Shown here: piece after piece, positions 3,029 through 47,203 of the stretch
Position numbering within the stretch: the first letter of the stretch is position 1
How the letters are laid out: each line of letters starts with the position of its first letter
Virus record (IMG/VR): IMGVR_UViG_3300031992_000022
Coordinates: 1 to 64,000 of that record
Direction: 5' to 3' (one strand)
Source: a virus
Lineage: Duplodnaviria > Caudoviricetes
DNA length: 64,000 nt
Position numbers and translations under genes: made by a program
Notes under the pieces: model-generated
Told to the model about the DNA's origin: nothing
The model's input: only the letters and a program-made list of their open reading frames with translations
The model's database searches: none

Positions 3029-3184
3029 TAATCTTTAGCCTCGATATTATTAATTTCTAAAAAGTGATAATTAGAATATAAAATTATATATAATATAATT
3101 TTATATCAACGTATAATAACATAATATATTCTTATAAAGATATATACTAAACTATTTTGTTGAAAAATAGATAATAAATAATTG
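3029..3184 (+). ncRNA. Miniature group I intron (156 nt) between the RBS and start codon of the downstream gene
   Basis: P1 GAGGU|UAAUCUUUA-GCCUC with U.G; P4 UUCUAA/UUAGAA; P6 hairpin; P7 ACGUAUA / AAAGAUAUAUACU; P9 CUAUUUU/AAAAUAG; ends AAUUG. The core motifs are identical to those of intron 35877-36342. Confidence 0.8.
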
Positions 3185-3190
3185 TAAAAG

Positions 3191-5665
3191 TTGTCAGCAA
3201 AAGATCATATTAATTATATTCAACAGCAAAAATTATTAATGCTTCAACAACAGCATAAAGAATTTGATCAACATTTTAATATGTATAGATTGCAAGATGG
3301 ATATATTAAAGGTCAAGGCAATAAAAAATGTAATATTGGTAGATTAGATGTAGGAGTAAACCCACCTGATCCATTATATTTTGATAATGGTATTAATCCT
3401 AATTCAGGTATGGTAACAGCTTTACCTCAAAATGAAGCAGGATTTATTGGCGGTGCTCCTGGATATAGCACGCCACCATTACCTGTACCAAGAACATCAA
3501 ATGCTGGAGCAAATTCTTATGACGTATCTGCAAATGGTACTGAAGCTGATATTTTTTCATGTTCTAATGCCGGTGTTGATTATACTGATAATCGTGATTG
3601 TAAAGCAACTATAGCTCGCCATGGTTTAGGATGTTTTCGTACATCTAGTGGACAATTAAAATGGTTTGGTAATTGGACAGAACCTGTAGCAGGACAAGAA
3701 TTTAATACAGATATGATTAATGGTAAAACGAGATTAACTGAAGCTATTACTAGTGATTTTGATAAATTATCATTACATTTACGTCCTGGTATGCATGCAA
3801 CCGGAGGTATAGGTAATAGCACTGTTGTTCAAGGACAAGGAGGAACATGGGAAGCTCGGGTCGGAGCTAATGAAAAGGAAGTAGATCCTGAAGTTGACTA
3901 TATATCTGCTGGTGTAGCAAGTGGATCAGAAGAAAATGAAATAGAATTAAAGCAGAATGAATATAATGAATTTTGTTCTATAAAAATGGATGCTAATAAC
4001 GGTAAAATTACCTTAAATGTTACTGGTGGAGAAAATCAATATAGTTCAACAATAATTATGACAGGCGATGATATTACTTGTATTACTCATGTATTTAATG
4101 TTTTAGCAGAAGATGAAATTAATATGCTAGCTGGGCAGCAAAAATCATCTATTATTATGGATAAAGATCAAATAGCAATTACAAATAATGAAAAATCATC
4201 TATTGTATTAACAAAGCCATCTATTGATATACAATCATTAATGATCTTAGAAAATGCTAAAACATTATTAAAAATGGACGCAGCAATGATTATGGAAAAT
4301 TGTAAGTCAAAAAGTGGTGCAGGTGGAGCAGCAGGAATTGCAGGAAAACTAGCATCAGTAGGAGCTAAATTAACAGCTCTAGCTTCAAATATAACTTCTG
4401 CTATTGGCGGAGCTTTAGCTAGTTCCGGATTAGGTGGTGCTTTAGGCGGAGCATTAGGAAATATGAGTGGAGCGCTAAGTGGAGCATTAGGAAATATGAG
4501 TGGAGCGCTAGGTGGTGCTTTGAGTGGTATTACTAGTCAGCTTGGAGCAGCTACAGGTATGCTAGGTAATATACAAAATATGGCAGGGAATTTAGCAGGT
4601 AATTTAGGCGGATTATCTAGTTTAAGTAATTTGGGCGGACTAGGTAATATTACACAAGGATTAAGTGGAGCAGCTAATATATTAGGTAATTCTAATTTAG
4701 GCGGTATAGGCAACGCATTACAATCAGGATTAGGTAATATATCTGGTATGGCACAACAAATACAAAGCGGAATTGGACAACAAATTGGTAATATTACAGG
4801 ATCAATACAATCAAATATACAGCAAGGAATGCAAACAATTAGTAATGCTACGCAAATGGTAAATGGAGCAATTAATCAAGGTACGCAAGCATTAGGTTCT
4901 GTGATTAATGGAGCTACTACAGCAATATCTGGTGCTGTGCAAACAATACAAACTCAGGCAGGAAGTATCGTATCAGGTACAATGGGAAAAATACAATCAA
5001 CTGTAGGACAAGCATTAGGTGGAGCTCAACTTCCATCTATAAATGATATTCCTGTTCCAATTATGCATCTGAATTCAATTGTAAATGATAGTAATTCAAT
5101 AATTCATACAAATGATACAGCTGATGAAAATAATTATGAACAATATATTAAGCAGCAACAACAAATTATATATAATACAATATATAATATGGATATTAAT
5201 GAAGAAGAAAAACAAAATTTATACTTGTATTATATAACATTATATAATTATATAATATCTATAGAACAAATTTGTAATATTATATTAATAGATTTTTCAA
5301 TAAATTTATTTACTATCAATTTATTAAATATTTATATGATTGATGTACAAGATTATACTAATAATATTAATTTAATAGTACAGGATTATATAAATAATAG
5401 TAAACAAGTTACAATAAATCAAATCATACATGATCAAAATGATAAAAAAATACAATGTTTACAAATGAAAAAATTTTTCAATACTAATTTAAAAAATGAT
5501 ATTATAAAGCAAAAAATTATAAAATTACTTGATGAATATATTAATAATTATATAAATTTAACTAATAATTTGATTATATTAATTAATAAATTATCTAATA
5601 TAAAAATTGATTTAGGCGAAATAGAAACTATTAATGAAGATAATGAATTATATAATCTATTGTAA
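3191..5665 (+). CDS. Baseplate spike (gp5/gpV/VgrG-like) with Gly/Ala/Ser-rich low-complexity region
   Basis: Beta-helix-like repeats (SSTIIMTGDDIT, SSIIMDKDQIAIT, SSIVLTKPSIDI); position between the hub and gp25-like wedge genes. Confidence 0.6.
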   Translation: MSAKDHINYIQQQKLLMLQQQHKEFDQHFNMYRLQDGYIKGQGNKKCNIGRLDVGVNPPDPLYFDNGINPNSGMVTALPQNEAGFIGGAPGYSTPPLPVPRTSNAGANSYDVSANGTEADIFSCSNAGVDYTDNRDCKATIARHGLGCFRTSSGQLKWFGNWTEPVAGQEFNTDMINGKTRLTEAITSDFDKLSLHLRPGMHATGGIGNSTVVQGQGGTWEARVGANEKEVDPEVDYISAGVASGSEENEIELKQNEYNEFCSIKMDANNGKITLNVTGGENQYSSTIIMTGDDITCITHVFNVLAEDEINMLAGQQKSSIIMDKDQIAITNNEKSSIVLTKPSIDIQSLMILENAKTLLKMDAAMIMENCKSKSGAGGAAGIAGKLASVGAKLTALASNITSAIGGALASSGLGGALGGALGNMSGALSGALGNMSGALGGALSGITSQLGAATGMLGNIQNMAGNLAGNLGGLSSLSNLGGLGNITQGLSGAANILGNSNLGGIGNALQSGLGNISGMAQQIQSGIGQQIGNITGSIQSNIQQGMQTISNATQMVNGAINQGTQALGSVINGATTAISGAVQTIQTQAGSIVSGTMGKIQSTVGQALGGAQLPSINDIPVPIMHLNSIVNDSNSIIHTNDTADENNYEQYIKQQQQIIYNTIYNMDINEEEKQNLYLYYITLYNYIISIEQICNIILIDFSINLFTINLLNIYMIDVQDYTNNINLIVQDYINNSKQVTINQIIHDQNDKKIQCLQMKKFFNTNLKNDIIKQKIIKLLDEYINNYINLTNNLIILINKLSNIKIDLGEIETINEDNELYNLL

Positions 5666-5693
5666 TTCTCTTAATTTCTTAAGAGAATTTTTT
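5664..5693 (+). terminator. Rho-independent terminator
   Basis: AATTCTCTTAA-tttc-TTAAGAGAATT followed by a T-run. Confidence 0.7.
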
Positions 5694-5776
5694 ATTTTTT
5701 TTATAAATATTAATAAAAAATAATCTTATATATTCAAATTTAAAAAAATATTAACATAAGAGGTGATAAAAAATTA

Positions 5777-6271
5777 ATGGCTTTAGACGTAAAATTTTGT
5801 ACATTATGTTCTCATTGGGTTAATAATATACAATATTCAGTAGCTACTTGTCCTAGATGTAATGGCAGAGGCTGGTATATGGATATTATGTTTGATTCTG
5901 CTGGCGATGCAATAGTTACAGGTGGAGCTATAAAAATGCAACAGGAATGTATTAAAGTATTATTTGATCAAAAACGTAGTGATTTATTTTATCCTGATTG
6001 GGGTAGTGAGATTCATGATTTTATAGGTAAAAAAAATACTACAGCTATTAGATCCCGATTAGAGATGTGTATTCGTAGAGCAATTGAAAGATTAAAAGCT
6101 ATCCAAGAACACGAAGCTTTAACTAATGCAAGTGTTACTGATAGCGAAATTATTAAAGATATTGAATATATATATCTCGAACCAGTATCAGTAACAGATT
6201 GGCATTGTAAAATTGCTATTAGTAATAAAGTAGACGAAACTTTCGAATTTGCAGTAGATTTAACAATATAA
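5777..6271 (+). CDS. Baseplate wedge protein (gp25/GPW-like) with N-terminal CxxC motifs
   Basis: FYPDWGSEIHDFIGK motif typical of gp25-like proteins; directly upstream of baseplate J; SD GAGGTG. Confidence 0.7.
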   Translation: MALDVKFCTLCSHWVNNIQYSVATCPRCNGRGWYMDIMFDSAGDAIVTGGAIKMQQECIKVLFDQKRSDLFYPDWGSEIHDFIGKKNTTAIRSRLEMCIRRAIERLKAIQEHEALTNASVTDSEIIKDIEYIYLEPVSVTDWHCKIAISNKVDETFEFAVDLTI

Positions 6272-6288: not shown

Positions 6289-8202
6289 TTGGCATACTCA
6301 TATTATTATAAATCACTAGCTGAAGTTAGACAAAATTTAATTAATAGTATACACGAAACAATTCCAGAAGCTGATTTATCTGAAGGTAAATTTTTAGCTA
6401 ATGTTTTTGTTAATCCTGTTGCTGATGAATTTTCTGCTTTATATGGCGATATGCAATTATTAAAGCAATCTCAATCTATTCTTTTTGCTACTGATGAAGA
6501 TTTAGATATTCTTGCCGCTAATTATTTTGTATATCGTAAACAAGCTACCAAAGCGATTGGTAAAGTACGCTTTTATATTATTAATAGTGGTACAGTTCAA
6601 ACTACAATTACCGAAAATGGTATTCCAGATGTAGTACATGTTCCAATCGGAACTACATTAAGTACTACTGCTACATATTTAAGCGCTTCTATTACTGTTG
6701 AAACGACAGAATTAATACATATTACTAAAGCTAGTATTATGAGCCTTCCAATTGATAATGAAACTGGCTATCGTTATTTAGAATGCTATGCTCAAGCTAC
6801 TGTTGGTGGAGAAGCCGGCAATATTGCAGCTGGTACACTTACGCAAATGTCTGGCAATGATATTCAAGGAATTGCATTTGCTACTAATCCATTTGCATTT
6901 AATGGCGGCATTGATAGAGAAAAAGATGATGCGTTAATGTTTCGCTGTCAATTAGCTGTTACTGGTAATAATATCGGTACTAAAGACGGATATTTAAAAT
7001 ATGTTTTAGATTATAATAATGTTGCAGCAGCAAAAGTGGTAGGCGCAGGCGACGAAATTATGTTTCGTGACGGAGGATATATTGATGTATATAATGAATA
7101 TCATTGGGGCTCTGGCGGCTGTGTAGATATATATGTTAAAGGATTAGAAGTAGCTGATTCAACTTATACTTTTACTACTAATGCTAATTATTTACAATCT
7201 TTTCCCAATATAGTTTTACCTAATCAACCAGTTAAAAACATTTTATCTATTACTTCTGCTGTATCAGGAGAAACATTTATTAATGCAGATGTCTATGATG
7301 TAGAATATTATTCATATACTAATGGTACAGATATTATATATGATACTATATATTGTATTGATATTCCTTGGGATTTTTCTTTAACTGATACTTTTCCCGA
7401 TGAGGAATATTATTCATTGCCTATTGGTTATACTTCTCAACAAATTGAAAGATTAAAATTAGCTGTAGATAATGAATTATTATCGGCAATACAATATATG
7501 ACGAATATGAGCTATACAATTGATTGGTCTCAAGCTTCTACTAGAACTACTGAAGAAGGCAATACGGCATTATTTGAAAAAATATATATTAATGATCAAG
7601 TATATAAATTGCGTGCCAGAAATGATTCAAATTTAGATAATAGAATTTTTGTAATGAAAAATAATAATATTTATGTACGAGCTTATGTAGAACCAGATTA
7701 TAAATTAATTAAAGATACTTCTAATTATGGCGGTAGTATGGTCGGAAAAGATGCAATTCAATGGTTAAATACACGTAAATTATTAACTAATGATGTATTA
7801 ACAATAATATATAATTATGATAGTTTAGTAAATACTATACAATCAAATATTGAAGAACAAAAATGCATGACTGCAGATGTTTTAATAAAGCAAGCAGTAG
7901 AAGTGCCGATTGAAATTAGTTTAGATATGTCTATATATAATACAACTTCAACTACAAATGTAAAAAATATTATATCTTCAGATATAAGTACATATGTTCA
8001 CGGTAAATTTATTTTAGGCGGGTCTTTCGATGCTAGTGATATTGTATCTATTGTAAAACAATGTGAATATGTAGATTCTGTTGATTTAAATTCAGTTAAA
8101 TTATCTAAAAAAGGTCATGCTCCGACAAATGAATTAACTATAGCCTCTAATGAATATTTTTTATTAAGTAATTTAATTTTAAATATTAGTGTAAATTCAT
8201 AA
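6289..8202 (+). CDS. Baseplate J-like protein
   Basis: ATDEDLDILAANYFVYRKQATKAIG, GGEAGNIAAGTLT, NPFAFNGGIDREKDDAL and GGCVDIYV are baseplate J hallmarks. Confidence 0.85.
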   Translation: MAYSYYYKSLAEVRQNLINSIHETIPEADLSEGKFLANVFVNPVADEFSALYGDMQLLKQSQSILFATDEDLDILAANYFVYRKQATKAIGKVRFYIINSGTVQTTITENGIPDVVHVPIGTTLSTTATYLSASITVETTELIHITKASIMSLPIDNETGYRYLECYAQATVGGEAGNIAAGTLTQMSGNDIQGIAFATNPFAFNGGIDREKDDALMFRCQLAVTGNNIGTKDGYLKYVLDYNNVAAAKVVGAGDEIMFRDGGYIDVYNEYHWGSGGCVDIYVKGLEVADSTYTFTTNANYLQSFPNIVLPNQPVKNILSITSAVSGETFINADVYDVEYYSYTNGTDIIYDTIYCIDIPWDFSLTDTFPDEEYYSLPIGYTSQQIERLKLAVDNELLSAIQYMTNMSYTIDWSQASTRTTEEGNTALFEKIYINDQVYKLRARNDSNLDNRIFVMKNNNIYVRAYVEPDYKLIKDTSNYGGSMVGKDAIQWLNTRKLLTNDVLTIIYNYDSLVNTIQSNIEEQKCMTADVLIKQAVEVPIEISLDMSIYNTTSTTNVKNIISSDISTYVHGKFILGGSFDASDIVSIVKQCEYVDSVDLNSVKLSKKGHAPTNELTIASNEYFLLSNLILNISVNS

Positions 8203-8223: not shown

Positions 8224-11200
8224 GTGTATACAGGTATTCGCCTTTCTAATTTAGCTTTAGGCGAGCCATTATTAAATCAAAATTATGAATATAACGGTAA
8301 AACAGGTAAAGATGCTATTACAGAAAGATTACACGATCAATTTTTTAAAATCTATAATTTAGGTATTAAATATGTAATTGATACTATTATAATTCAAAAT
8401 AATAATTCTATTTTGTCTTTATATCCTGGTATAGGTGGCGATATATGGACATTAGACGAACGTTTACAATTATATCAGAAATATGCCGAACAATATAATA
8501 TTAGTATTGTAGTCGAAATTGATATATCTAATATAACTGCAAGTAATGTTAATCAATATTGCAATACTATATTATATGATATAATTCTACAATATTCCTG
8601 GGTAAGGTATTGGATTATTGGTGTACAACCAGATTCGATAATAAATAATCAATATAAATGTGCTCCTGAATTATATACTTATATTTTACAACAAATATAT
8701 CCTAAAATTAAAATGTTTAATAGTAATATTTTAATTGGAGGACCTAATATTCATCAATCAATTAAACAATATATTATAAATAAAACAGGTTGGTTAAGTA
8801 TTGCATGTGGTGATCTATATAACCAAGATTATACATATAACAATTTAGGCAAAAATGGTATATTAGACTATATTGATATATTTGCTATTTTAGGTAAACA
8901 AGATAGTCAATATTGTCCTTATAATGAATACGCGAATATTGTAGACAATATTCGCGAACTACTTTATTCTAAATTAAGCACAAATAATATTTTAATTTTT
9001 GCTACTAATCAAGGACATACTGTAGCTTTAAATGATATAGATATATATAATTCTATTATTAATTCAATTACTAATACCGATATTATAGAAAACATGAACA
9101 ATATGCAGCTTAATCAATATACTCAAAATTTATTTAATGCTGCAAAAACTACCGAATTAAATAGACAAGCATATAATGATATTAAAGAAATTTGTAATGC
9201 TCTTAGATCTGGAGTAATATCATTTAAACGTGAATTATTAGATTCTAATACTTCAAAATATGGTATATATACATCTCCATCTAGTGTTGCTATTGCAAAG
9301 TCTTCTACTTATCCATTTATTTTCGATATATTAAAAAATTATACTACTATAGTTCGTGATTCTAGTATATATGAATCTAATGATAATATAGAATCTATTA
9401 CATTACAACAAGAAACTGATAATATAATAAATCGTGCAACAATTATTTGGCCGGTTTCAGAACAACCTGTACATATTATATTACAAGCAACATCTAATAT
9501 AAGACAATATTATATCAATAATGTTACTAAAAAAAATGTTGATTATACATATACAACCGAATTAACTATTACATATGATCAATTATTAGTTGTATATGAA
9601 CAAGTCAATCAATTCGTATTTGATGAAGCTGATATTAAATTAAATATTTCACGTCGATTAAGATATCAGCGAGAAATCCATGATCAAATGATGAAAGAAT
9701 TACCGTCATCATATAATAGTGATACTACTGATACTAATATTTATCGTATTATGAGAGCATTTGCTACAGAATTAGCTGATGCATCTATGCGATTAACAAT
9801 GCTAAAAGAAGACATTTCATTAGATACAGCAAGAGAAGAAGCTTTATATCATAATTTTGGTTCATTAATACGCTTACAAAAACAATCTACTTGGTCATAT
9901 GAAAAATATCGCAAATTAATTAAAGGAATATTATCTTCACTATTTCGAGGACCTACAACTAATTCAGTTGCTACAGCATTACAATTATTTACTGAATTTA
10001 AAGTATCTATTAATGAATTATATAAAGAAAAAGCGCAAAAAAAATATGCAGATTTATTACGGCATTATAATCCAGATTTTACTTTTATTATCGAAGTTGA
10101 AAAACCATTAGATAATAGTACTTATACACAAAAAGAATTAATTGAAGATAATGCTTATATATTACAATTAACTAAACCTGCACATACTATCGGAATTATC
10201 ATTATTATATTAGTCGGTAGCGAAGATTGGTATACTTTTTATAAAGACAAATACAATACTGACTGGAATACTTCTGATGAAACAAAAATTCATGCCGATT
10301 TTAGTAAGAAAATTAACGAAAATACTTATGGATGGAAAGCAATAGATTATCCTGGTACATTTACAATTTCTCCAACAGATAATGGTATATATAAGAATTC
10401 GTTATTAAATGGCAGTGCTATAATAGGGCCACAATATACTTTATTAGATACATCGCATTTAAGTAATACAGCATCATTAACTGATTTATATAATAATACT
10501 AAAATAAAAGAACAATTAATATATTCTATTGGCTTAGACGCTATCGAAGAATATAATAATTATACAAGTCAATTATGTGCAATTAGTACTGAATTAAATG
10601 AACCACGATTTGGGTTCATTGATAATAAGTATATGCAATTATCTGGAGATAATATAACAGATAAAGTATTAAATAAATATTTAGCATTTGGTAATCAATC
10701 TAAATTAAAAGATGAACTATTAGTATATCAGCAACAATTTTTTAGCGATAAATTTTTATTCTCATCTACAACTAATGCAATTAAATTTACTACACCAGAT
10801 GGAATTAGTTCACAATTTGCAGCATTAAATAATATTATCACTGAATGGCAAAATTATTTAAAAGAACATTCATTTAAAGAAAAATTAATTAACGGTCAAA
10901 TTATTGAACGTATTAGTGATAATATTAATTTATATTTAGAAGGATATAAAGAAAAATTTAAAAATATATATGAACAGCATAAATTAGCTGTAAATTTACA
11001 AGATAATGTCGATGTTACAGATGATATTACATTACCTATTAAATTAAATGAGCAATATAGTAATCATAAGTTTTTAAAACGTAAACGTGAAAAATTATTA
11101 TATAATCCATCATATAATGATTTATATAATATACCAGATGAAATATATCCATATGAATTATATTGGGATCGTATGAATAGTGAATATTTTAATCCCGTGC

Positions 11201-35876: not shown

Positions 35877-36342
35877 CAAATTTATTAATTTAATATTAGA
35901 TATTAACTATTTATTTCTAAATAGTTTAGTATATATCTTTTATTTAGATAACATATAATTTTTTATTTTGACTGAATATCAATACAAATTTTTCCATTAG
36001 CAATATATTGATTATCTATCCACCAATGTTCGTCAAATATTGCTAATTTTTCTAATGCTTGTTCTAATGAATAATCTGTTATAATCAGTAACATTAATTG
36101 ATCATCTATATATTCTAAACGTAAATATGCATAATCAAAATAATCATTAATTTTATTAATTATAATATTTAATATTTCATTTAAACAATTATCATTTAAA
36201 TATTGCTGAATGCTTTTATTAATAATCATGAATTATTATCCTTTAATTATATTAATATACGTTGATATATTTATTAATAAATATATTCTAATTAACTATT
36301 ATAGTTTTCTTAGAAAAAAATATAATACCAAGCTAATTATTA
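35877..36342 (-). ncRNA. Group I intron (466 nt) directly after the radical glycine codon, carrying an 88-aa ORF
   Basis: CAGGU|UAAUAAUUA-GCUUG P1; P4 UUCUAA/UUAGAA; P7 ACGUAUA/UAUACU; ends AAUUUG. The join gives RRITG|YLTG. Confidence 0.9.
35963..36229 (-). CDS. Intron-encoded 88-aa protein with no recognisable nuclease motif
   Basis: SD AAAGGA; lies between the two P7 strands; EQALEKLAIFDEHWW motif. Confidence 0.65.
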   Translation of the reverse strand: MIINKSIQQYLNDNCLNEILNIIINKINDYFDYAYLRLEYIDDQLMLLIITDYSLEQALEKLAIFDEHWWIDNQYIANGKICIDIQSK

Positions 36343-37693: not shown

Positions 37694-37705
37694 AAAAAAT
37701 ATATA

Positions 37706-38122
37706 TTATTTTATATCTAAGTTAAAATCTACTTCATAATGTTGATTATCTACATGTTCATGATATCCACAAATTGGACAAGCTTTATTAATAAAAGATG
37801 CTTGTTTACACGCTGGACAATAATCAGCAGACTTAGTATTAATAGCAAAATAATTCATTTGACTATCATGCATAGCTCTGATTATTTGTTCAAAAGCTTT
37901 TAAATTTTTTGTAGCGTCGCCATCAAATTCTATATATGAAATTATACCAGCATTACATAATGCATGATATGGAGCTTCTATTTTTATTTTATCAGCAAAA
38001 GAAATTTGATAATTAACAGGAACATGAGAAGAATTAGTAAAATATTCTTTATCAGTTACGCCTATAATATTACCATATTTCTTTCGCGTTAATTTACATA
38101 ATCGTCCAGCACAACTTTCTGC
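37706..38122 (-). CDS. nrdD: Class III RNR large subunit, exon 7
   Basis: AESCAGRL...YFTNSSHVPV...CPAC...CPICG Zn site; stops before the glycyl-radical motif. Confidence 0.9.
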   Translation of the reverse strand, partial: AESCAGRLCKLTRKKYGNIIGVTDKEYFTNSSHVPVNYQISFADKIKIEAPYHALCNAGIISYIEFDGDATKNLKAFEQIIRAMHDSQMNYFAINTKSADYCPACKQASFINKACPICGYHEHVDNQHYEVDFNLDIK

Positions 38123-38456
38123 CATATATACCGCTATTTTCATAGTATTTATCTAAAAAATTCTTATTTAATAAATTTATGGCGGATTAGACTATCTCTT
38201 TACCTATAAAAGTAATTAATATTTCATATATAATATTTCAATTATATATTACTTAATTAGTCGTTACACTTTAATATATATATTAAAGCACGGTATTACC
38301 AGCTATCTTTATATCAAAGACCTTAGGTTCTCTTAGAAAGCTTATTCATCTATATAACATATATAAATTTATTCACTTTTACCGTTAGCATATATTATTT
38401 ATAATTAATATATACACCTTAGATTTCTAAGTTAATTAATTTAAGTCCCACATTTT
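38123..38456 (-). ncRNA. Group I intron nrdD-I6 (334 nt)
   Basis: P1 AGUCCU|AAAAUGU-GGGACU; P4 AACGGUA/UACCGUG; P7 ACGACUA/UAGUCU; join SSP|AES. Confidence 0.9.
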
Positions 38457-38933
38457 AGGACTCGAAAAAGTAGACCAATTTAATTTTTCCTCATTAATAT
38501 ATTTATCAGTCATTGCACGTAAATGACTAATAATTAAATATCCTAATTGTTGCGCTTTTTGAGACTGTCCGTGATGTTCGCCTATTAATGCAGTTAAACA
38601 TTCAGCCAATCCAACAAAGCCAATAGATAATGATGCATGTTTTAATACTGATTCAATTGTATCACTTGGTTTTAATTTATCACTATCCATATAAACATGT
38701 TGTTCCATTAAAAACGGAAAATTATATACATGTTTTTGACAAATAACATAAAATCTATCTAATAAATAATCATGTGCTAATTGAATATATTTATCAAATA
38801 ATTCAAAAAATTTACTAACATCTTTATTAGCTTCTATAGCTAGCATAGGTAAATTAATTGTAGTAAAAGCAAAATTTCCTCGAGATCCACTTTCTTCTGG
38901 ACCATTAACATTACCCATAACTCTTGTTCTACA
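38457..38933 (-). CDS. nrdD: Class III RNR large subunit, exon 6
   Basis: CRTRV...GRGNF-like SRGNFAFTTINLP, SIGFVGLAECL. Confidence 0.92.
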
Positions 38934-39253
38934 CAATTATATATTTAATTGGACTATATATTATATATTGTGAATAAATATATAATTTTATTCAATTTGT
39001 ATAAAATTTACATAAATTAGCCTCTAAATTAATTTTTGTAAAAATTCATAAAATTGAATTTCCATATTATTACCATATCCATATATATGATGAAATTTTT
39101 TATAACATATTTTACATAATACGTTTTTTTCAATTTTATAATTTCATTACAAAAATTAATAATTAATCATTTATAATTAATTATATAAAATTATTAATTA
39201 TAAATTTTCTAATTAATTATAATTTTTTATATGGGCTATAGATTCTATAGTTA
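38934..39253 (-). ncRNA. Group I intron nrdD-I5 (320 nt)
   Basis: P1 AUGGGU|UAA...GCCCAU; P7 GAGGCUA/UAGUCC; ends AAUUG; join MG|CR. Confidence 0.9.
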
Positions 39254-39439
39254 ACCCATTGTAGCACATAAAGATTGAATATTCCCGGGATGATAATATT
39301 GTGCATTATATGGAGCATCTTCATTCATATAAGTTGGAAATAATCTTTTTGCCGAGCATTTTAAAGCTAATTGAAATAAATCATAATTTTTATCTTGCTG
39401 ATTATAATTAAATCCAGATTTTAATTGGAACACAACTAT
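39254..39439 (-). CDS. nrdD: Class III RNR large subunit, exon 5
   Basis: IVVFQLKSGFNY...NYDLFQLALKCSAKRLFPTY...ATMG. Confidence 0.9.
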
Positions 39440-39818
39440 CTTTTATACCGTCATTTTCATGATATTTATTTAAGAAAAAATTTTCTTAACGGAATAGACT
39501 ATCTCTTTATCCTTATTATTAATTTTAAAGATATTTAGTATTTCATATATAATATCTCAATTATATATTACTTAATTAGTCGTTACATTATATATTTATT
39601 ATATTAATTAAATATTTATAAATTTCCATCCTTTATATAATAAATTAAACACGGTATTACCAGCTATCTTTATATCAAAGACCTTAGGCTCTCTTAGAAA
39701 GCTTATTCATCTATATAACATATATAGATTTATTCACTTTTACCGTTAGCATATATATTGAAAATATATACACACCTTAGATTTCTAAGTTAACTAAATT
39801 TATAATTTTCCCCAATTA
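39440..39818 (-). ncRNA. Group I intron nrdD-I4 (379 nt)
   Basis: P1 UUUCCU|UAAUUG-GGGAAA; P7 ACGACUA/UAGUCU; join IFP|IVVF. Confidence 0.9.
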
Positions 39819-39936
39819 AGGAAAGATACTCGTTTCATGTCTACCTAAACCATCATATATAGCATTTAATAAGCATCTTGTGACTAATCTACCTTCTTCA
39901 GATGTATCACATCCAAGATTTATGGAAGAAAATGGT
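39819..39936 (-). CDS. nrdD: Class III RNR large subunit, exon 4
   Basis: PFSSINLGCDTSEEGRLV...GLGRHETSIFP; missed by the ORF track. Confidence 0.9.
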
Positions 39937-40150
39937 CAATTATATTATTTATAAATTTGTAATTTTATATTTAAATATTACTATTCAAATTGGTATATCT
40001 CTTTATCATTATATAAAATTTATATACTCTATAATTTAATCAATATTTAATTAATTAAATTTTGATATTCATATATGCTAAATATTGCTAATAATAATTT
40101 TAGACATACATTATTCACCAAATTAATTTTAATATCAAGCATAATTATTT
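39937..40150 (-). ncRNA. Group I intron nrdD-I3 (214 nt, variant P7)
   Basis: P1 UCAAGU|AAAUAAUUAU-GCUUGA; P7 GAGUAUA/UAUACC; ends AAUUG; the join GT|A gives QVPFSS. Confidence 0.85.
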
Positions 40151-40174
40151 ACTTGACTACCAGCTCTGCTATTT
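40151..40174 (-). CDS. nrdD: Class III RNR large subunit, exon 3 (24-nt micro-exon)
   Basis: Encodes (L)NSRAGSQ(V), the conserved SRAGxQ motif. Confidence 0.9.
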
Positions 40175-41160
40175 CTATCGAGTTTATAATTTCTTATAAT
40201 ATTTTACTCGATATAGACTATATTATATTTTTCAATTTTAGTATTTCATATATAATATCTCAATTATATATTACTAAATTAGTCGTTACACATTTATTAT
40301 TTTTTAATATTTATTTATTATTTATCTCCTATAATTAATCTTTTTTCCATTTCCATAAAAAACCATATACCGGTCTATTATTATTTGCAGCTTTTGTTAA
40401 TGTCGCACTAGAATATCCATATTTTTTTACTACCGCATTTTTAGATAAAAATGATTCTAAATATTCATTAGATAATGAATATTTATATATAGGTTGACCT
40501 TGCGTTAATATATTATGTAATGCTGTTTTTTGCCAACCCTTACGCTTATTATCAGTAACCTTCATTAATCCTAATTTATAAGCATGTTTATAATTTTCTG
40601 AACATGTTACCATTTCTAAATTAGTTACAGCATTATTTAATTTATTACCATCAATATGATTAACCTGTAATTTCTCTGAATAATTATCTAAAAAGCTTTC
40701 TGCAACTAATCGATGTACTAATTTACTATAACGTATATCATTTACTATAAGATCCACTTTTAAATAACCTTTATTATTTTTACCGGGTTGTAATATTTTT
40801 TCACGTATTGAATAATTATTTTTACCATAACGTTGATTAGAACGTATATTACCATAATTAGATACTGAATAACAATTATTTGTATTAGGTATAAATTTCC
40901 AAATTTCCATTTTTACTTTTTATTTCAAATTATAATAAATAATATTAAAAAATAAACTTAGCACGGTATTACCAGCTAACCTGTTATACAGGTCCTTAGG
41001 CTCTCTTAGAAAGCTTATTCATCTATATAACATATATAGATTTATTCACTTTTACCGTTAGCATATATTATTTTATAATTAATATACACACCTTAGATTT
41101 CTAAGTTAGCTAAATTTTCATAATAAACTATTTTATTAATTTATTATGCTTCCAAATTCG
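40175..41160 (-). ncRNA. Group I intron nrdD-I2 (986 nt) with HNH ORF
   Basis: P1 CUUU|CGAAUUUG-GAAG; P4 AACGGUA/UACCGUG; P7 ACGACUA/UAGUCU; frame restored. Confidence 0.88.
40335..40910 (-). CDS. Intron-encoded NUMOD4-HNH homing endonuclease (I-HmuI-like)
   Basis: EIWKFI...[11 protein letters not shown] (NUMOD4); VHRLVA...[11 protein letters not shown]...NLE (HNH); C-terminal YGFLWKW (NUMOD1-like). Confidence 0.92.
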
Positions 41161-41513
41161 AAAGAATTCATATTATGCACGAAACCTTCCATTGCTTGAT
41201 AAGTTTCATCTTCTACATCTTCCATAGATTGTTGGTATGCAAATATTAATGCTTTTTTTACTGCTTTAGGTGACATTAAATCATCATCATTATGAGTTAT
41301 AAATTCATCAATAAACTCATCTAAGCTTTCTTGATTATTATATTTTGGCAATTTATCTTTTACATCATATCCAATATATTCAATTAATTCATTAAATATA
41401 TCAGAATCTTTTAACATTATTTTTTGTGCAATTTTTAAATTCTTTTTAAATGCTTTTAAAAATGATTTTTGTACACCTGGAGCCATATAAAAATCAAATA
41501 AATTAATTGATTG
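41161..41513 (-). CDS. nrdD: Class III RNR large subunit, exon 2
   Basis: QSINLFDFYMAPGVQKSF...TYQAMEGFVHNMNS. Confidence 0.9.
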
Positions 41514-42470
41514 CTTTTTTATAGACTATATATTATTAATATGTATTTATGACAATAGTACCATCTATTACTGTATCTGGTAAATTTGCATCTTCTAATA
41601 CATTGTCAAATTCCATATTATTTTCAATTTCTGGAAGATCCGTTTTATCTAAATTAATTTTATATTCCATACTAGGACAAATATAACGGCCAATAATACG
41701 TATAAATTCTTTTGCTGTATTTAATCCGCAACATACTATATATTTACCATAATATTTTTTTTGATAAAAATCTAATTTCCATTCGTCTTTTAAATATTCA
41801 ATTAATACTTGATTATATTCTGGAGTAGTTTTTGTTTTTAATATTAAATTAACTGTTGTAATTTTTCCATTATCTTTTTTGTAAATTAATGATCCAATTT
41901 CCATATATAATATAGCTAAATGTAAAGAAGTAAAACGATTAAACCAACGTCTACGTAATTTACCACCATATGTCATTTTTCTATATACAGATAAAAAAGT
42001 ATGTTTATAAGTTCTTATAGCATATCTAGGAAATTGAGTAAAATCATTATTTCGCATTAATTCTAATTCATGTTCATCAACAGCAAAATCTTCAAATGTT
42101 GAATGTTTTAATTGCTGATTTTTATCTTGAAAATCTACTACTTCAGAAGTATTAATATTATATTTCTTTAATAAAATACGAATATGATTTAAATATTCTT
42201 TATCATTATGTTTAAGAACTAAATAATTATCAATAACTCTAGCATGCCCAAGTAATAAAGCAATAGTTAATGTTCTAGCTTCTTTTATAATTTTTGCCAT
42301 TATATTTTCATCCTTTTCTATACACATTAAGTGATAATCTTTTATTCTTAATTAGTCGTTAAGCTATAATCTATTATTTAATAAATTATAGTATGATATT
42401 AATCTAAGTATATTTTTTATTAAAAAATATTTTTCATCATATTATTGAAATTAAGTAGCCAATATTAATA
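41514..42470 (-). ncRNA. Group I intron nrdD-I1 (957 nt) with degenerate LAGLIDADG ORF
   Basis: P1 GGUGGU|...GCUACU; P7 ACGACUA/UAGUCU; join FGG|QSIN. Confidence 0.9.
41536..42327 (-). CDS. Intron-encoded double-motif LAGLIDADG-like protein with catalytic Asp residues altered
   Basis: IALLLGHARV (canonical LLGDG) and LAILYMEIGSL (canonical LAxWYMDDGS); C-terminal PSMEYKI typical of the LAGLIDADG_2 family. Confidence 0.75.
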   Translation of the reverse strand: MCIEKDENIMAKIIKEARTLTIALLLGHARVIDNYLVLKHNDKEYLNHIRILLKKYNINTSEVVDFQDKNQQLKHSTFEDFAVDEHELELMRNNDFTQFPRYAIRTYKHTFLSVYRKMTYGGKLRRRWFNRFTSLHLAILYMEIGSLIYKKDNGKITTVNLILKTKTTPEYNQVLIEYLKDEWKLDFYQKKYYGKYIVCCGLNTAKEFIRIIGRYICPSMEYKINLDKTDLPEIENNMEFDNVLEDANLPDTVIDGTIVINTY

Positions 42471-43178
42471 ACCACCGAATTGTTCATTTTGATTTGACTG
42501 AATTACAATAGCTGCTAATGCAGCATAAGATCTAATTGAATTTGGAGTACGAATATATCCATGACCTGTAGAAAATCCGTTTTTAAATAATTTTTCTAGA
42601 TTTATTTGGAGACAATTGCTTGTGATTAACGAGAAATCAAGATCATGTAAATGAAGATAACCTTCTTTATGCGCTTGAGCATATTCAGGTTTAAGAAAAT
42701 GATTAAGAATAAAATGCTTATTACCTTCTGAACCAACTTTAAGCATAATGCCCATTGCACTATTTCCATTTATATTAGCATTATCTCTTTTCAATTCAAG
42801 GTCTTCTGCGCTTTTAAAATATATATCATTATAAAGTTTCATTAAATCATTATTTGCATCTCTAATTTGTGTACGCTTTGCTCTATAACGAATATATTCT
42901 TTTGCTACTTCATTTTCTTTATTTTTTAATAAATCATCTTCAACTATATCTTGAATTTTTTCTACTGTAATTGTATTATTTTTTACTGCTTTTTTAATAT
43001 GTCTAAGAATTTTCCCAGTTAAATTCATTATTTCTTCATCATCATCAATATTATTGCCTTTTACAGAAGCAAAAGCTTGTTTCAAAGCATTAAATATTTT
43101 TTCTGATGAAAATAATATTTGTCTACCATCACGTTTTTGTACATAAATTTCTTTTTTCTTAGCCAAAATATATTTCAC
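42471..43178 (-). CDS. nrdD: Class III (anaerobic) RNR large subunit, exon 1 with ATP cone
   Basis: VQKRDGR ATP cone; DNAN; AHKEGYLHLHDLDF..NC; QSNQNEQFGG. Seven exons total 2283 nt (760 aa); the start may be the TTG at 43166. Confidence 0.95.
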
Positions 43179-43185
43179 CTGACTT

Positions 43186-43665
43186 TTATATTAATTTGCT
43201 TTTTTTTCTATCAATACGATGTCCATTATAAATATATGTCCTTCCATTATTTTTGTTTTCTTTCATATTATTTGCTGATACTGAACTCCATTCTAAATTC
43301 TCTACTCTATTATCATCTCTGTTTCCATTTTTATGATTAACAATAGGTAAATTTTTAGGATTAGGAATCCAAGCATCTGCAACTAACCTATGAACAGTTT
43401 TAGATACTGTTTCATCTCCATCCATCATTGTTACTTCTCGATAACCATCTTTATCCCAGCGTGGAGATAAATGAATTCCCCGCCGCTCAGAATAAATATC
43501 ACCTTTTTTATTAACCCAATAACCAGTATATGGCGTTGGCTTATAATCTTTTTTTAAATTAGGTGTTATTTTTCTAGATGCTAATAATTTTTTAGTATAA
43601 TCAAAATCTATTAAACTTTGATCTACTATAAATTGTAAATATTCACGAAATTGTATACTAATCAT
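43186..43665 (-). CDS. Free-standing HNH endonuclease
   Basis: VHRLVADAWIPNPKNLPIVNHKNGNRDDNRVENLEW. Confidence 0.9.
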   Translation of the reverse strand: MISIQFREYLQFIVDQSLIDFDYTKKLLASRKITPNLKKDYKPTPYTGYWVNKKGDIYSERRGIHLSPRWDKDGYREVTMMDGDETVSKTVHRLVADAWIPNPKNLPIVNHKNGNRDDNRVENLEWSSVSANNMKENKNNGRTYIYNGHRIDRKKSKLI

Positions 43666-43722
43666 AACTCACCTCTATTAGTATCAAAAAAATAAATTTA
43701 TTTTCTTTAATTTATACTAAAG

Positions 43723-43750
43723 AAAAAAGTCTTTATTATATAAAGACTTT
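43723..43750 (-). terminator. Terminator right after the predicted spliced HD-GYP-like gene
   Basis: AAAGTCTTTAT-ata-ATAAAGACTTTTTT on the minus strand. Confidence 0.65.
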
Positions 43751-43815
43751 AAAACCTTTCGTCATCCGTTAATTGTCCTATCGTAAAATTCCGTTCTGGA
43801 ATATAATCATTTTGT
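43749..43815 (-). CDS. HD-GYP-like protein, predicted exon 2
   Basis: The join AT|A gives NNDIQNDYIPERNFTIGQLTDDERF*. Confidence 0.6.
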
Positions 43816-44027
43816 CTAATATTAAATAAATATCGATATATTTATAAAATGTTATCATCTTCTTTAAGAAGATGTAAAGATCAAATAATTATATAATATA
43901 TAATATTTTTACATAAAATTTCGTATACTTTATTGATCGTTAAATAAATAACTAATTATCTATAATTATCTATTACTAATTAATTTAGAAAAATTATACT
44001 AGTACATATGAATATTGTGATACATGC
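43816..44027 (-). ncRNA. Cryptic group I intron (212 nt, variant P7)
   Basis: P1 UGAUAU|GCAU-GUAUCA; P7 ACGAUCAA/UUGAUCU; P9 CAUCUUCUU/AAGAAGAUG; terminal G restores the frame. Confidence 0.65.
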
Positions 44028-44599
44028 ATATCATTATTTACAACTGATTTTATAAACGGAGCTATAATTTTAGCCGGAAAATATTTATTTCCTAAAGATT
44101 TAATATTTTTACAAGTTTCTTCATGAGACATATGATTTAATCTACAATTATCATAATAAGCAGCTATACGTAATACCTTAGATAAAGTATCTATATTATC
44201 AGCATGTAAGTGTCGAGGATATCCACTACCATCTACATTTTCTTCCGCTTGATCTATAATTGTTATAGCTGGACTGAAATCAATATCTTTTTCTACAGAT
44301 TCTAAACTCTTTAATAATGCTTGTGTATATAATGTATAATTTGCCATTTTTTCTTTACGATTAATGATATCAAAATCATCTTCGAATGAAATATCAATTT
44401 CATTAGATAATTTATTCATTATCCATAATTTTCCGGATTCTAATAATAATCCTGAAAACCATAATGCTTCTAATTCATCTGCTGGACAATTAATTGCTTG
44501 TCCCATTGCATAACAAAGACAAGCTGTATTATTACTATGTCGCAATTGATTTTCATCCATTTTATCTAAAATAAATTGAATATCTTGAACTCTCATCAT
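44028..44599 (-). CDS. HD-GYP-like protein lacking metal-binding residues, exon 1
   Basis: RHS...LLLESGK (HD replaced)...QAEENVDGSGYP...IAAYYD. Confidence 0.75.
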
Positions 44600-44655
44600 A
44601 CTTTTAAATCAATCCTTTATTATTTATATATATAATTTTTTATGAAACGAGGTAA

Positions 44656-45486
44656 TTGCAAATGAACATACCTAAAAATTTTAAAGTAATTACCAACACT
44701 ACTACAAAAGATAATATATTAAATATATATAAATATAACGATATTCAGTATAAAACACCTAAAATAATTAATAATACTAAATCAAAAAAATCAATATATA
44801 ATTGGTCCACTGTACAGTTTCCAGTATTTACTTATAAGCATATTACAGAAGATTTAAAAATTACATTAAATAATATATATTTAATTCTTGAGCATATAAA
44901 TAAATTACAAGATATATTAAATCAATTAGATAAAAAAATAAGTATTGCTGGAACGTCAATGAATATATTTATAAATAATTCATTTGATTTACAAAATGCA
45001 TTTAATTATTCGCAGCAATTTATTATAATTCGTAATCATAAATTAGAAATTCATAATAATATTGAATTAGATACTGCTTTAGTACAAAATGAAATACAAT
45101 TATTACATCTTGAAGATGATGAATTATTGCAATTAGTTCCAAAAAATACTAATTCTTATTCTATTACAAATAAACAATTAAAAACATTTAATCAACTATA
45201 TAATCAATATATTGAATATATAGATAATTATAATATGGTAAGTTTTGATCATGAATCAGCATGTAATACATATGAATATTTATTAGAATCATTACAAGCT
45301 AATTTACCAAATATTCAAACAATTAATTTAACAACTAATAATAAAAATGAAACTTTTAATATTAATAAACATGATTTATTATTAGTTAATCAAAATGCTA
45401 ATATTGGATTTTTTTATGTAAAAAAGCAATATTCAAAAAAATTACAGCAATTCTTAGCTACAAAAAATAAGAGAAAACAATCTTAA
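44656..45486 (+). CDS. Hypothetical protein
   Basis: SD GAGGT; 276-aa ORF. Confidence 0.55.
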   Translation: MQMNIPKNFKVITNTTTKDNILNIYKYNDIQYKTPKIINNTKSKKSIYNWSTVQFPVFTYKHITEDLKITLNNIYLILEHINKLQDILNQLDKKISIAGTSMNIFINNSFDLQNAFNYSQQFIIIRNHKLEIHNNIELDTALVQNEIQLLHLEDDELLQLVPKNTNSYSITNKQLKTFNQLYNQYIEYIDNYNMVSFDHESACNTYEYLLESLQANLPNIQTINLTTNNKNETFNINKHDLLLVNQNANIGFFYVKKQYSKKLQQFLATKNKRKQS

Positions 45487-45806
45487 TTGTTATTTTCTCT
45501 TATTTTTTTTAATTGCTGTTTATTTGATAAATGTAGAAATTCGTCATTTTCTTCATCTGAATTATTAATTTTTTCTGATTTATTATAGTCCTGTAATAAT
45601 TCTTCATAAATATTTTTATTACCTAATAATGCTAATTCTATACTATGTATAGTCTGTTTTAATGTATTAATATCACTTTGTAATTTATTAATTTTTTTCT
45701 TTAACATATTATTTTCATTAACTAATTCTGTTTGCTGTTCCAATATAAAATTAACATAATTACGAATTGCAGAATCTAATTTAATAATTTTACCTTCAAT
45801 ATTCAT
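45483..45806 (-). CDS. Hypothetical coiled-coil protein
   Basis: Likely start MNIEGK after SD AAAGGA, inside the 45483-45911 ORF. Confidence 0.5.
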   Translation of the reverse strand: MNIEGKIIKLDSAIRNYVNFILEQQTELVNENNMLKKKINKLQSDINTLKQTIHSIELALLGNKNIYEELLQDYNKSEKINNSDEENDEFLHLSNKQQLKKIRENNN

Positions 45807-46392: not shown

Positions 46393-46423
46393 ATATTAAT
46401 ACTCAACTCCATATATAAATATT

Positions 46424-46696
46424 TTATTTCCATTTATATCGTTTATAATAACTACGCACTGCTGTTCGACAAGTATATGAATTATGCCATATAGATAATT
46501 TAGTTATATAATTAATTATGTATTCATGAAAAAAATATATTGATTTATAATCACAAATTTCCCATGATTGAAAAATTTTTTTATAATAACTATAATTGCC
46601 AATATATTTCGTTCTACGAACTTTATGATTTGCAATTTTTTTAAAACCAAATCGTTTATATGCTATGCAAGGAAAATGTTTATATGATCGACTCAT
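46424..46696 (-). CDS. Small basic hypothetical protein (MSRSYK type)
   Basis: MSRSYK...KKIANHKVRR...YKK...SWEICDY; SD AAGGAG. Confidence 0.6.
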   Translation of the reverse strand: MSRSYKHFPCIAYKRFGFKKIANHKVRRTKYIGNYSYYKKIFQSWEICDYKSIYFFHEYIINYITKLSIWHNSYTCRTAVRSYYKRYKWK

Positions 46697-46807
46697 TTAT
46701 TAATCACTCTCCTTTAATCTATTTTTAATATTTATTATAAATATTAAAAATAAAATAAAAAAATATAATTAGATTTTAATAAAATCTAATTATATTAAAT
46801 TTTACTA

Positions 46808-46917
46808 TTAATAATTATATTTTTGTCGACGAATATTTTCGATATTCTTTTTAATATAAAATTGCGCTAATTCATTAGCATCATCAAATATAAATGCAGC
46901 TAATAACATATAATGAT
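46808..46917 (-). CDS. Dimeric dUTPase/dCTPase, exon 2
   Basis: (Y)HYMLLAAFIFDDANELAQFYIKKNIENIRRQKYNY*, the YxxKNxxNxxRQxxxY motif. Confidence 0.85.
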
Positions 46918-47203
46918 CTGGTATATTTATTAAATTTTATACATTTAATAAACTTTATATATAATTAATATATTAATATAAAATATTTATATTAGTCTAT
47001 TAAAATAAAATCTAATAAAATTATTAATCAATTATAATTAATAATTGCATATGACTATATTTTTAAATGTTATTTCAATATATATTATATATTTACTTAT
47101 AATTAGTCGTTAAATAAATACTTATTAATTAATAAATATTTATTATTGATATAATATTAAAATATTTATACCAATAAAGTTAATAAATATTAATGGCAAT
47201 ATT
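46918..47203 (-). ncRNA. Group I intron (286 nt) in the dUTPase/dCTPase gene
   Basis: P1 AUGGU|AAUAUU-GCCAU; P7 ACGACUA/UAGUC; terminal G restores the frame. Confidence 0.88.

What the first reader, a model, noticed from the sequence alone, without database searches (positions are those of the whole stretch)
3029..47203. Family of reduced, AT-rich group I introns with covarying non-canonical P7 helices
Seen: ten elements share the P1 (U.G) ... P7 ... terminal G layout, but P7 varies with compensatory changes. Variants: ACGACUA/UAGUCU (I1, I2, I4, I6; UAGUCA in the dUTPase intron), GAGGCUA/UAGUCC (I5), GAGUAUA/UAUACC (I3), ACGUAUA/UAUACU (3029-3184 and 35877-36342), ACGAUCAA/UUGAUCU (43816-44027). 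The G-C pair of the guanosine-binding site and the bulged base are kept in all. Sizes go down to 156, 212 and 214 nt. Established: GACUA/UAGUC is the most conserved group I element, and the smallest well-studied self-splicing intron (Azoarcus) is about 205 nt. Inference: this is a divergent minimal subgroup that standard covariance models would probably miss and that may need protein help.
Basis: partly seen in the sequence, partly recalled or inferred. Interest (0 to 1): 0.82.

Follow-up and report, generated by a model that had tools for sequence, protein, structure and literature searches.

The report
Small AT-rich group I introns in a phage
Ten real group I-type introns, some far smaller than usual, interrupt genes of a huge gut phage, and the smallest sits between a gene's ribosome-binding site and its start codon.

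Summary
All ten elements exist with the stated P7 strings and the sizes 156, 212 and 214 nt.

- **Splice-site layout:** every 5' exon ends in U, which pairs with a G of a matching internal guide, and every intron ends in G.
- **Junctions:** joining the exons restores a gap-free NrdD, an HD-domain protein, a dUTPase-like protein and the glycyl-radical motif.
- **Helices:** P1, P4, P6 and P7 covary well beyond controls.

- **What they are:** group I-type introns that Rfam RF00028 misses completely, although it finds all three T4 introns.
- **Not one family:** they fall into at least four sequence subfamilies. Three are not reduced (334-379 nt cores).
- **P7:** the architecture is canonical, with only the sequence varying.
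- **Protein help:** not tested.

Abundant small group I introns in huge gut phages, with fragmented nrdD, are already published (PMC12880540).

The freshest point is the 156-nt intron. It lies between a Shine-Dalgarno sequence and a TTG start, and its guide pairs with the Shine-Dalgarno itself. A relative repeats this layout. This scan has noted comparable placements on other DNA.

The parts
3029..3184 (+). 156-nt group I-type intron (subfamily B1). It lies between a Shine-Dalgarno sequence and the TTG start of a tail-region gene. No P2; the P5 position is a 10-nt loop; only 27 nt separate the two P7 strands.
   Evidence: Homologous to the 36342..35877 intron. Best-scoring window hit of model R1, 93.6 bits. 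The guide GCCUC pairs with exon GAGGU. The free fold predicts P1 (8 bp), P6 and P9 at -27 kcal/mol, z = -2.09.
3020..3028 (+). Shine-Dalgarno sequence AAAGGAGGT, which forms the 5' exon strand of P1.
   Evidence: Read directly from the sequence. P1 pairing.
3191..5665 (+). Downstream ORF of 824 aa with a weak tape-measure-like match. Its TTG start would lie 7 nt after GGAGG once the intron is removed.
   Evidence: The N-terminus of homologue P0003 aligns from residue 7 to our residue 6. phrog_1272, E = 1.4e-6. No Shine-Dalgarno-like tetramer lies in the 20 nt upstream in unspliced RNA.
35877..36342 (-). 466-nt intron (B1) with an 88-aa ORF in P8. It splits a small glycyl-radical protein gene at RRITG|YL.
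   Evidence: Exon 2 matches Pfam NRDD positions 542-562 of 562. The joined product aligns with the T4 NrdD C-terminus. R1 hits its 5' half, E = 0.0053 with filters off.
38123..38456 (-). nrdD intron I6, 334 nt, full-size subfamily A.
   Evidence: Junction SSP|AES is gap-free against Selenomonas NrdD. P1 is 7 bp. 74-90% identical to I4 and I2.
38934..39253 (-). nrdD intron I5, 320 nt. P7 is GAGGCUA/UAGUCC.
   Evidence: Junction ATMG|CRTRV. P1 is 6 bp, GCCCAU. P7.
39440..39818 (-). nrdD intron I4, 379 nt, subfamily A.
   Evidence: Junction IFP|IVVF. P1 is 6 bp.
39937..40150 (-). nrdD intron I3, 214 nt. P7 is GAGUAUA/UAUACC (GAG type).
   Evidence: Junction V|PFSS. P1 is 7 bp. Relatives with GAG-type P7 show compensatory changes.
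40151..40174 (-). 24-nt micro-exon of nrdD between I2 and I3.
   Evidence: Supplies (L)NSRAGSQ(V), which aligns without a gap to LHSRAGAQV of Selenomonas NrdD.
40175..41160 (-). nrdD intron I2, 986 nt, subfamily A, with a NUMOD4 + HNH_3 endonuclease ORF at 40335-40910.
   Evidence: Pfam E = 1.8e-11 and 5.7e-10. Junction in frame. P1 is only 4 bp.
41514..42470 (-). nrdD intron I1, 957 nt, with a LAGLIDADG_2 ORF (41536-42327) between the P7 strands. Only 9 nt separate P7' from the terminal G.
   Evidence: Pfam E = 1.9e-10. Junction FGG|QSIN. Tail length.
43816..44027 (-). 212-nt intron in an HD_5-domain gene (subfamily C). P7 is ACGAUCAA/UUGAUCU.
   Evidence: Uninterrupted homologue P0007 (80% identical) reads ...VND|IQNDYVPERNFTIGELTDDERL across the predicted junction. 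P4 and P6 align with subfamily C.
46918..47203 (-). 286-nt intron in a dUTPase_2-like gene (subfamily C). P7 is ACGACUA/UAGUCA.
   Evidence: Uninterrupted homologue P0021 (72% identical) spans the junction with no indel. Both exons match Pfam dUTPase_2 in colinear order.

Best explanation
These are genuine group I-type introns of a very AT-rich (about 22% GC) huge phage from a ruminant gut. They are removed from the mRNA by the usual two-step guanosine-initiated splicing.

Shown:
- Exact restoration of five reading frames.
- A U.G pair at every 5' splice site, in a helix with a guide matched to each exon.
- A terminal G.
- A P7 helix with the bulge and the invariant G-C pair.
- Covarying P4, P6 and P7.

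Inferred: catalysis itself, and whether it is autonomous.

The ten belong to several lineages:
- A full-size type: I2, I4, I6.
- A minimal type of about 150-185 nt: the 156-nt element and its ORF-bearing relative in the glycyl-radical gene.
- A type related to TnpB-carrying introns elsewhere in the contig: the HD-gene and dUTPase-like-gene introns, perhaps I1.
- A GAG-type-P7 type: I3, I5.

In the minimal type P2 is missing, P5 shrinks to a loop or a few pairs, and P8 is 0-4 bp or holds an ORF.

The 156-nt intron sits in the untranslated spacer of a tail-gene operon. Before splicing its guide sequesters GGAGG and the start lies 163 nt away. After splicing GGAGG lies 7 nt before TTG. Efficient translation of that gene should therefore depend on splicing.
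For: Junctions:
- The seven nrdD exons sum to 2283 nt and give 760 aa with no internal stop. 418 of 752 residues match Selenomonas NrdD P0090, with no gap at any of the 6 junctions.
- The HD junction is matched by intron-less homologues.
- The dUTPase-like junction is matched by P0021.
- The glycyl-radical motif is restored.

P1: own pairs average 5.7 bp against 2.9 bp for cross pairs, 0 of 20000 permutations.

P7: 10 of 10 have their own complement exactly once downstream.

Covariation:
- Consensus folding of 7 minimal-type members gives P4, P6 and P7, with 12 of 23 pairs compensatory.
- Model R1 finds 18 members at E<0.1 in 341,581 bases. On them the P7 G-C pair is 18 of 18, the next pair is UA 9, AU 6, CG 3, and the third is AU 12, CG 5, UA 1.
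- Subfamily C: 22 pairs, 9 compensatory.
- GAG type: P7 shows 2 compensatory pairs.

Endonuclease ORFs typical of group I introns sit in I1 and I2.

Untranslated-region intron:
- A homologue's N-terminus supports the TTG start.
- Unspliced RNA has no Shine-Dalgarno-like tetramer upstream of that start.
- The guide differs from that of its closest relative in step with the exon: GAGGU/GCCUC against CAGGU/GCUUG.
- A second minimal-type intron in a related contig follows CGAGGT with guide GCCTCG and ends 12 nt before an ATG.

Precedent: splicing of small group I introns in huge gut phages was confirmed for 37 of 76 by metatranscriptomes (PMC12880540, passage read).
Against: - No RNA evidence was obtained for this phage.
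- RF00028 matches none of the ten. In the rest of the contig it gives only two 33-nt pieces.
- The P3 pseudoknot is only weakly supported: own pairs 6.89 bp against cross pairs 6.26 bp, 541 of 20000 permutations.
- P8 is vestigial in the minimal type, and almost all helices are A-U only. Chance pairing is therefore easy, and stability of a 14% GC ribozyme is doubtful.
- The P4-P6 layout of I3, I5 and I1 was not established.
- No near-identical spliced NrdD product exists in the protein collection; the best match over exon 5 is 75% identical.
Confidence: 0.85

Rival explanations
1. The small elements are degenerate group I cores that can no longer fold alone. They would splice only with help from a phage or host protein, such as a maturase-like LAGLIDADG protein or an RNA chaperone.
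For: - GC content is 10-16% in the small introns (script outputs).
- P5 and P8 are reduced and P2 is absent in the 156-nt type.
- The free fold is only modestly better than shuffles: z = -2.09, with 6 of 200 shuffles as good.
- An intact LAGLIDADG ORF sits in I1.
Against: - Nothing here tests protein dependence.
- The core helices are under clear compensatory selection. That is equally expected for an autonomous ribozyme.
- From recall, engineered derivatives of the T4 nrdD intron of about 180 nt remain active. No call checked this.
Confidence: 0.35
2. The 3029-3184 element is a dead copy that landed in an intergenic spacer and is not spliced. The downstream gene would be translated without the upstream Shine-Dalgarno, or by coupling to the upstream gene.
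For: - It lies outside coding sequence, so no reading frame demands its removal.
- It is the most reduced of the ten.
- The upstream ORF ends only 24 nt before it.
Against: - All core motifs are kept.
- It scores 93.6 bits, fourth of 18 family members, though it was one of the model's seeds.
- Its guide has changed to match the new exon.
- Unspliced RNA leaves the TTG without any Shine-Dalgarno-like tetramer.
- A relative shows the same placement.
Confidence: 0.12
3. The elements are not introns. The genes would be genuinely fragmented or decaying, and the shared motifs would be AT-rich repeats.
For: No hit to any Rfam intron model for these ten.
Against: - Removing exactly these segments gives gap-free alignments to intact homologues at 8 coding junctions, plus the restored radical motif at a ninth.
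- A 24-nt exon cannot function as a separate gene.
- Guides match each exon.
Confidence: 0.02

Closest known systems
Group I introns of phage T4 (td, nrdB, nrdD/sunY; subgroup IA2)
   Same: Phage group I introns in nucleotide-metabolism genes, including nrdD. They share the U.G 5' splice site, the terminal G, the P7 bulge with a G-C pair, and endonuclease ORFs in peripheral loops.
   Different: RF00028 finds all three T4 introns at 105.3, 40.3 and 35.7 bits and none of ours. Here there are six introns in one nrdD gene and a 24-nt exon. The cores are smaller and far more AT-rich.
Small group I introns of Jug huge gut phages (PMC12880540; passages read, supplements closed)
   Same: Huge gut phages with many introns: 2513 in 136 of 139 genomes, mean about 206 nt. 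nrdD is fragmented in 95 of 104 genomes. Many HNH and LAGLIDADG genes are present, and splicing was seen for 37 of 76 introns in metatranscriptomes.
   Different: This contig is not a Jug phage by what was tested. It has 22% GC against 27-30%, and its baseplate protein is closest to Bacillus phage G. The passages read give no account of P7 covariation, of the reduced architecture, or of introns in translation-initiation regions. The supplementary tables could hold relevant detail.
Azoarcus pre-tRNA-Ile intron (about 205 nt; size recalled, not from a call)
   Same: A compact group I core without large peripheral domains.
   Different: Azoarcus is GC-rich, has P2, P5 and P8 with tetraloop-receptor contacts, and sits in a tRNA. 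The minimal type here is 156 nt at 14% GC, without P2 and with vestigial P5 and P8. Its catalysis is untested.
c-di-GMP-dependent group I ribozyme in a Clostridium difficile 5' untranslated region (described in PMC3984707, passage read)
   Same: A group I intron in a 5' untranslated region. Splicing brings the ribosome-binding site next to the start codon.
   Different: No aptamer or alternative 5' splice site was seen here. The intron is about 156 nt, and its guide pairs with the Shine-Dalgarno itself. Nothing shows regulation.
IStrons (group I intron plus IS200/IS605 or IS607 genes; PMC4227781, passages read)
   Same: The cores of the HD-gene and dUTPase-like-gene introns align with cores elsewhere in the contig. 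One of those lies next to a 502-aa TnpB ORF with OrfB_IS605 and Cas12f1-like TNB domains. IStron hosts include Selenomonas and relatives. Those genera also hold the closest cellular NrdD homologues.
   Different: The ten window elements carry no tnpA or tnpB. The published target pentanucleotides and the TCAG end were not seen at these sites.

Membership tests
Group I intron | The 5' splice site follows a U that forms a U.G pair within P1. | tested here: met
   10 of 10.
Group I intron | An internal guide sequence is complementary to the end of the 5' exon. | tested here: met
   4-7 contiguous bp, mean 5.7, against 2.9 for 90 cross pairs. 0 of 20000 permutations reached the observed sum. I2 has only 4 bp.
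Group I intron | The last intron base is a G. | tested here: met
   10 of 10. The positions were fixed by protein alignments.
Group I intron | P7 helix with a bulged base and a conserved G-C pair, the guanosine-binding site. | tested here: met
   10 of 10 keep the bulge and the G-C pair. The G-C pair is 18 of 18 among relatives, and the neighbouring pairs covary. That this pair binds guanosine is inferred from the family, not tested.
Group I intron | A P4-P6 domain. | tested here: met
   P4 and P6 are recovered with compensatory changes for the minimal type and for subfamily C, which includes the HD and dUTPase-like introns. For I2, I4 and I6 they were judged by inspection only. They were not established for I1, I3 and I5.
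Group I intron | The P3-P8 pseudoknot domain. | tested here: inconclusive
   P3 own pairs 6.89 bp against cross pairs 6.26 bp, 541 of 20000 permutations. P8 is 0-4 bp in most minimal members (by inspection).
Group I intron | A match to the Rfam model Intron_gpI (RF00028). | tested here: not met
   No hit at E<=10 in the window, in a 5-kb slice or in a 381-nt slice. Positive control: 3 of 3 T4 introns were found. The model also misses an annotated Enterococcus phage intron, so a miss is weak evidence against membership.
Group I intron | A match to subgroup-specific covariance models (GISSD-derived, PMC11835236). | not testable with these tools
Group I intron | Guanosine-dependent self-splicing, or spliced RNA in vivo. 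| not testable with these tools
IStron | A group I intron fused to IS200/IS605 or IS607 genes (tnpA and/or tnpB). | tested here: not met
   None of the ten window elements holds such an ORF. A related core outside the window lies next to a TnpB ORF.

The most novel reading that the evidence does not exclude
The 156-nt type would be a natural minimal class of group I ribozyme, about 150-185 nt, with no P2 and with P5 and P8 reduced to loops. That is smaller than any characterised self-splicing group I intron. One of its sub-lineages carries a guide (GCCUC) that mimics the anti-Shine-Dalgarno of 16S rRNA. It would therefore colonise ribosome-binding sites and make translation of virion genes depend on splicing.
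Probability: 0.3. Interest if true: 0.8.

Novelty: new variant of a known kind. Interest (0 to 1): 0.58.

Why it matters
If the 150-215-nt introns splice, they mark how far a natural group I core can be pared down, and at 10-16% GC. That bears on ribozyme folding, on minimal-ribozyme engineering and on intron annotation. Rfam's model misses all of them, so such phage genes are called as fragments. One example is the 201-aa unspliced reading P0006.

The intron between the Shine-Dalgarno and the start codon offers a simple, testable case of translation gated by self-splicing in a phage structural operon.

Tried and rejected
- **Rfam.** At gathering and at E<=10 it gave only a group II intron and noise in the window.
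- **Relatives of the gene after the 156-nt intron.** The search for related loci found none in viral contigs. No intron-less allele of that spacer was therefore seen.
- **Host-gene exons against the related contig G001.** tblastn gave nothing.
- **Motif-plus-helix descriptor scans.** These were far too permissive: 355 and 403 raw hits, and 199. They served only as pointers.
- **Model R1.** It does not detect I1-I6 or the HD and dUTPase-like introns, even with filters off. The best is a local, non-significant hit to the P7 region of I3, E = 0.63. A single-family reading was therefore dropped.
- **blastn of I6 against phages.** It gave only 55-65-nt matches at 81-84% in 12 records: Enterococcus phages EF1 and EF5, and Lak phages.
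- **A seventh nrdD intron before the glycyl-radical ORF.** This was considered and dropped. Selenomonas and Eggerthella-phage NrdD end at the same point.
- **A near-identical spliced NrdD in the protein collection.** None was found; the best is 75% over exon 5.
- **The gene after the second untranslated-region intron (L022).** It has no match in the phage collection or in G000 or G001, so its start is unverified.
- **Sequencing runs.** An RNA run holds 0.32 of the sampled words of 35800-45799.
- **Literature.** Searches for a stated smallest group I intron gave nothing usable. The Azoarcus size is recalled.

Full report
**Context.** The window is the first 64 kb of a 158,834-bp viral contig. 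It has about 22% GC. Its tail and baseplate genes are most like those of Bacillus phage G: baseplate J-like protein, 33% identity. DNA runs holding it come from sheep and goat gut samples.

**Are the elements there?** Yes.

- On the minus strand, nrdD (class III ribonucleotide reductase) is in seven pieces.
- Joining 43178-42471, 41513-41161, 40174-40151, 39936-39819, 39439-39254, 38933-38457 and 38122-37706 gives 2283 nt and 760 aa without an internal stop.
- That product aligns to an uninterrupted Selenomonas NrdD (P0090, 752 aa) with 418 identical residues. There is no gap at any of the six junctions, including both sides of the 24-nt micro-exon.
- The HD-domain gene's predicted junction is matched residue for residue by intron-less homologues, for example P0007 at 80% identity.
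- The dUTPase-like gene's junction is matched by P0021 at 72% identity. This fixes that intron at 47203..46918, 286 nt.
- The 36342..35877 element splits a small ORF at RRITG|YL. Its second exon matches the last 21 positions of Pfam NRDD, and the joined product aligns with the T4 NrdD C-terminus.
- In all ten, the exon ends in U and the intron ends in G.

**More than chance?**

- Each intron's guide pairs with its own exon over 4-7 contiguous bp, mean 5.7. The 90 mismatched exon-intron pairs average 2.9, and no permutation of 20000 reached the observed sum.
- Each intron holds its own P7 complement exactly once downstream.
- For the 156-nt type, seven ORF-less homologues were collected from this contig and a related one. 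RNAalifold returned P4, P6 and P7, with 12 of 23 pairs compensatory.
- A covariance model built from them found 18 members at E<0.1 in 341,581 bases.
- On that alignment 97.8% of cells pair against 70.8% in shuffles. 18 of 23 pairs change on both sides, and slid controls pair at only 28-46%.
- Within P7 the G-C pair is invariant (18 of 18), while the next two pairs take three types each.
- The alignment was fitted to the model, which favours the structure.
- Subfamily C (the HD and dUTPase-like introns plus relatives) gives P4 and P6 with 9 of 22 pairs compensatory.
- The GAG-type relatives of I3 give P7 with two compensatory pairs.

**What they are.**

- The layout is that of group I introns: P1 with U.G, a guide, P4-P6, J6/7, P7 with a bulge and G-C, an A-rich J8/7, P7', a P9 hairpin and a terminal G.
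- I1 and I2 carry LAGLIDADG and NUMOD4/HNH ORFs.
- The conserved stretches around P7 resemble the classical R and S elements. That resemblance is recalled, not tested.
- P3 is only weakly supported: own pairs 6.89 bp against cross pairs 6.26 bp, 541 of 20000 permutations.
- P8 is vestigial in the minimal type.

**Standard models.**

- RF00028 gives no hit to any of the ten at E<=10, even on a 381-nt slice holding only I6.
- Over the whole contig it returns two 33-nt pieces outside the window.
- The same model finds all three T4 introns at 105.3, 40.3 and 35.7 bits.
- It misses an annotated Enterococcus phage intron.
- Subgroup models could not be run.

**One family?** No.

- I2, I4 and I6 share 74-90% identical segments and are full-size.
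- Model R1 detects only the 156-nt element and the 5' half of the glycyl-radical-gene intron among the ten.
- The HD and dUTPase-like introns align with cores elsewhere in the contig, one of which lies next to a TnpB ORF. This group is therefore IStron-like.

**The 156-nt intron.**

- It lies after the stop of an 838-aa ORF and immediately after AAAGGAGGT. It ends 6 nt before the TTG that opens an 824-aa tail-region ORF.
- A homologue's N-terminus supports that start.
- The unspliced upstream 20 nt hold no Shine-Dalgarno-like tetramer. Neighbouring structural genes use GAGGTGA ahead of their starts.
- The guide GCCUC pairs with GAGGU. With three further pairs beyond the splice site, this makes an 8-bp P1 in the free fold.
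- Its closest relative has CAGGU/GCUUG, so the guide changed with the exon.
- In a related metagenome contig, another member follows CGAGGT, has guide GCCTCG and ends 12 nt before an ATG. That gene's start is unverified.
- Splicing should therefore free the Shine-Dalgarno and bring it next to the start. A comparable outcome is described for the c-di-GMP ribozyme of Clostridium difficile (PMC3984707, passage read).
- Earlier notes of this scan report comparable placements on other DNA: an IStron remnant in another jumbo phage and a group II lineage. Those are unchecked AI notes, and I did not test them.

**Novelty.**

- Many small group I introns in huge gut phages have been published. The paper reports fragmented nrdD and metatranscriptome support for splicing (PMC12880540, passages read; supplements closed).
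- New here are a different, more AT-rich phage and the documented covariation.
- Also new are a minimal architecture below the size of characterised self-splicing introns (size limit recalled) and the placement in a translation-initiation region.

Noticed in passing
window 24350-26552 (-): A group II intron. The D1-D4 region scores 100.5 bits and domain V/VI 56.1 bits. It holds a reverse-transcriptase ORF at 24479-25843.
   Followed up: no
window 37706-38122 and 35802-36606 (-): The nrdD reading frame ends just after the zinc ribbon. So do Selenomonas NrdD P0090 and Eggerthella phage NrdD. The glycyl-radical motif lies on a separate 112-aa ORF about 1.1 kb downstream, interrupted by an intron exactly at the radical glycine codon.
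   Followed up: partly
window 38457-38933 (-): Among the hits that carry a source's name, the closest NrdD homologues are from Selenomonas and Selenomonadaceae, about 70% identity over exon 5. This hints at the host or gene donor.
   Followed up: no
window 43186-43665 (-): A free-standing HNH endonuclease ORF lies directly downstream of the HD-gene's second exon (phrog_59, E = 9.4e-31).
   Followed up: no
window 8224-15996 (+), especially 12300-14200: A 2590-aa ORF falls to 13.6% GC and shows motif hits spaced 219-222 nt apart, suggesting a long tandem repeat.
   Followed up: no
L022 11038-11284 (+): In a related metagenome contig, a second minimal-type intron starts right after CGAGGT, has guide GCCTCG and ends 12 nt before an ATG. 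Further model hits lie in the same locus at 6490-6655, 11559-11711 and, more weakly, 12957-13111.
   Followed up: partly
L008 3836-5344 (-) = contig 107236-108744: A 502-aa TnpB ORF (OrfB_IS605 and Cas12f1-like TNB domains) lies next to an intron core. That core aligns with the HD and dUTPase-like introns.
   Followed up: partly
window 36692-37606 (-) and 35963-36229 (-): A 304-aa ORF lies between nrdD and the glycyl-radical ORF. An 88-aa ORF lies inside the glycyl-radical-gene intron. The 304-aa ORF has no Pfam or PHROGs match and the 88-aa ORF, searched in PHROGs only, has no match there.
   Followed up: no
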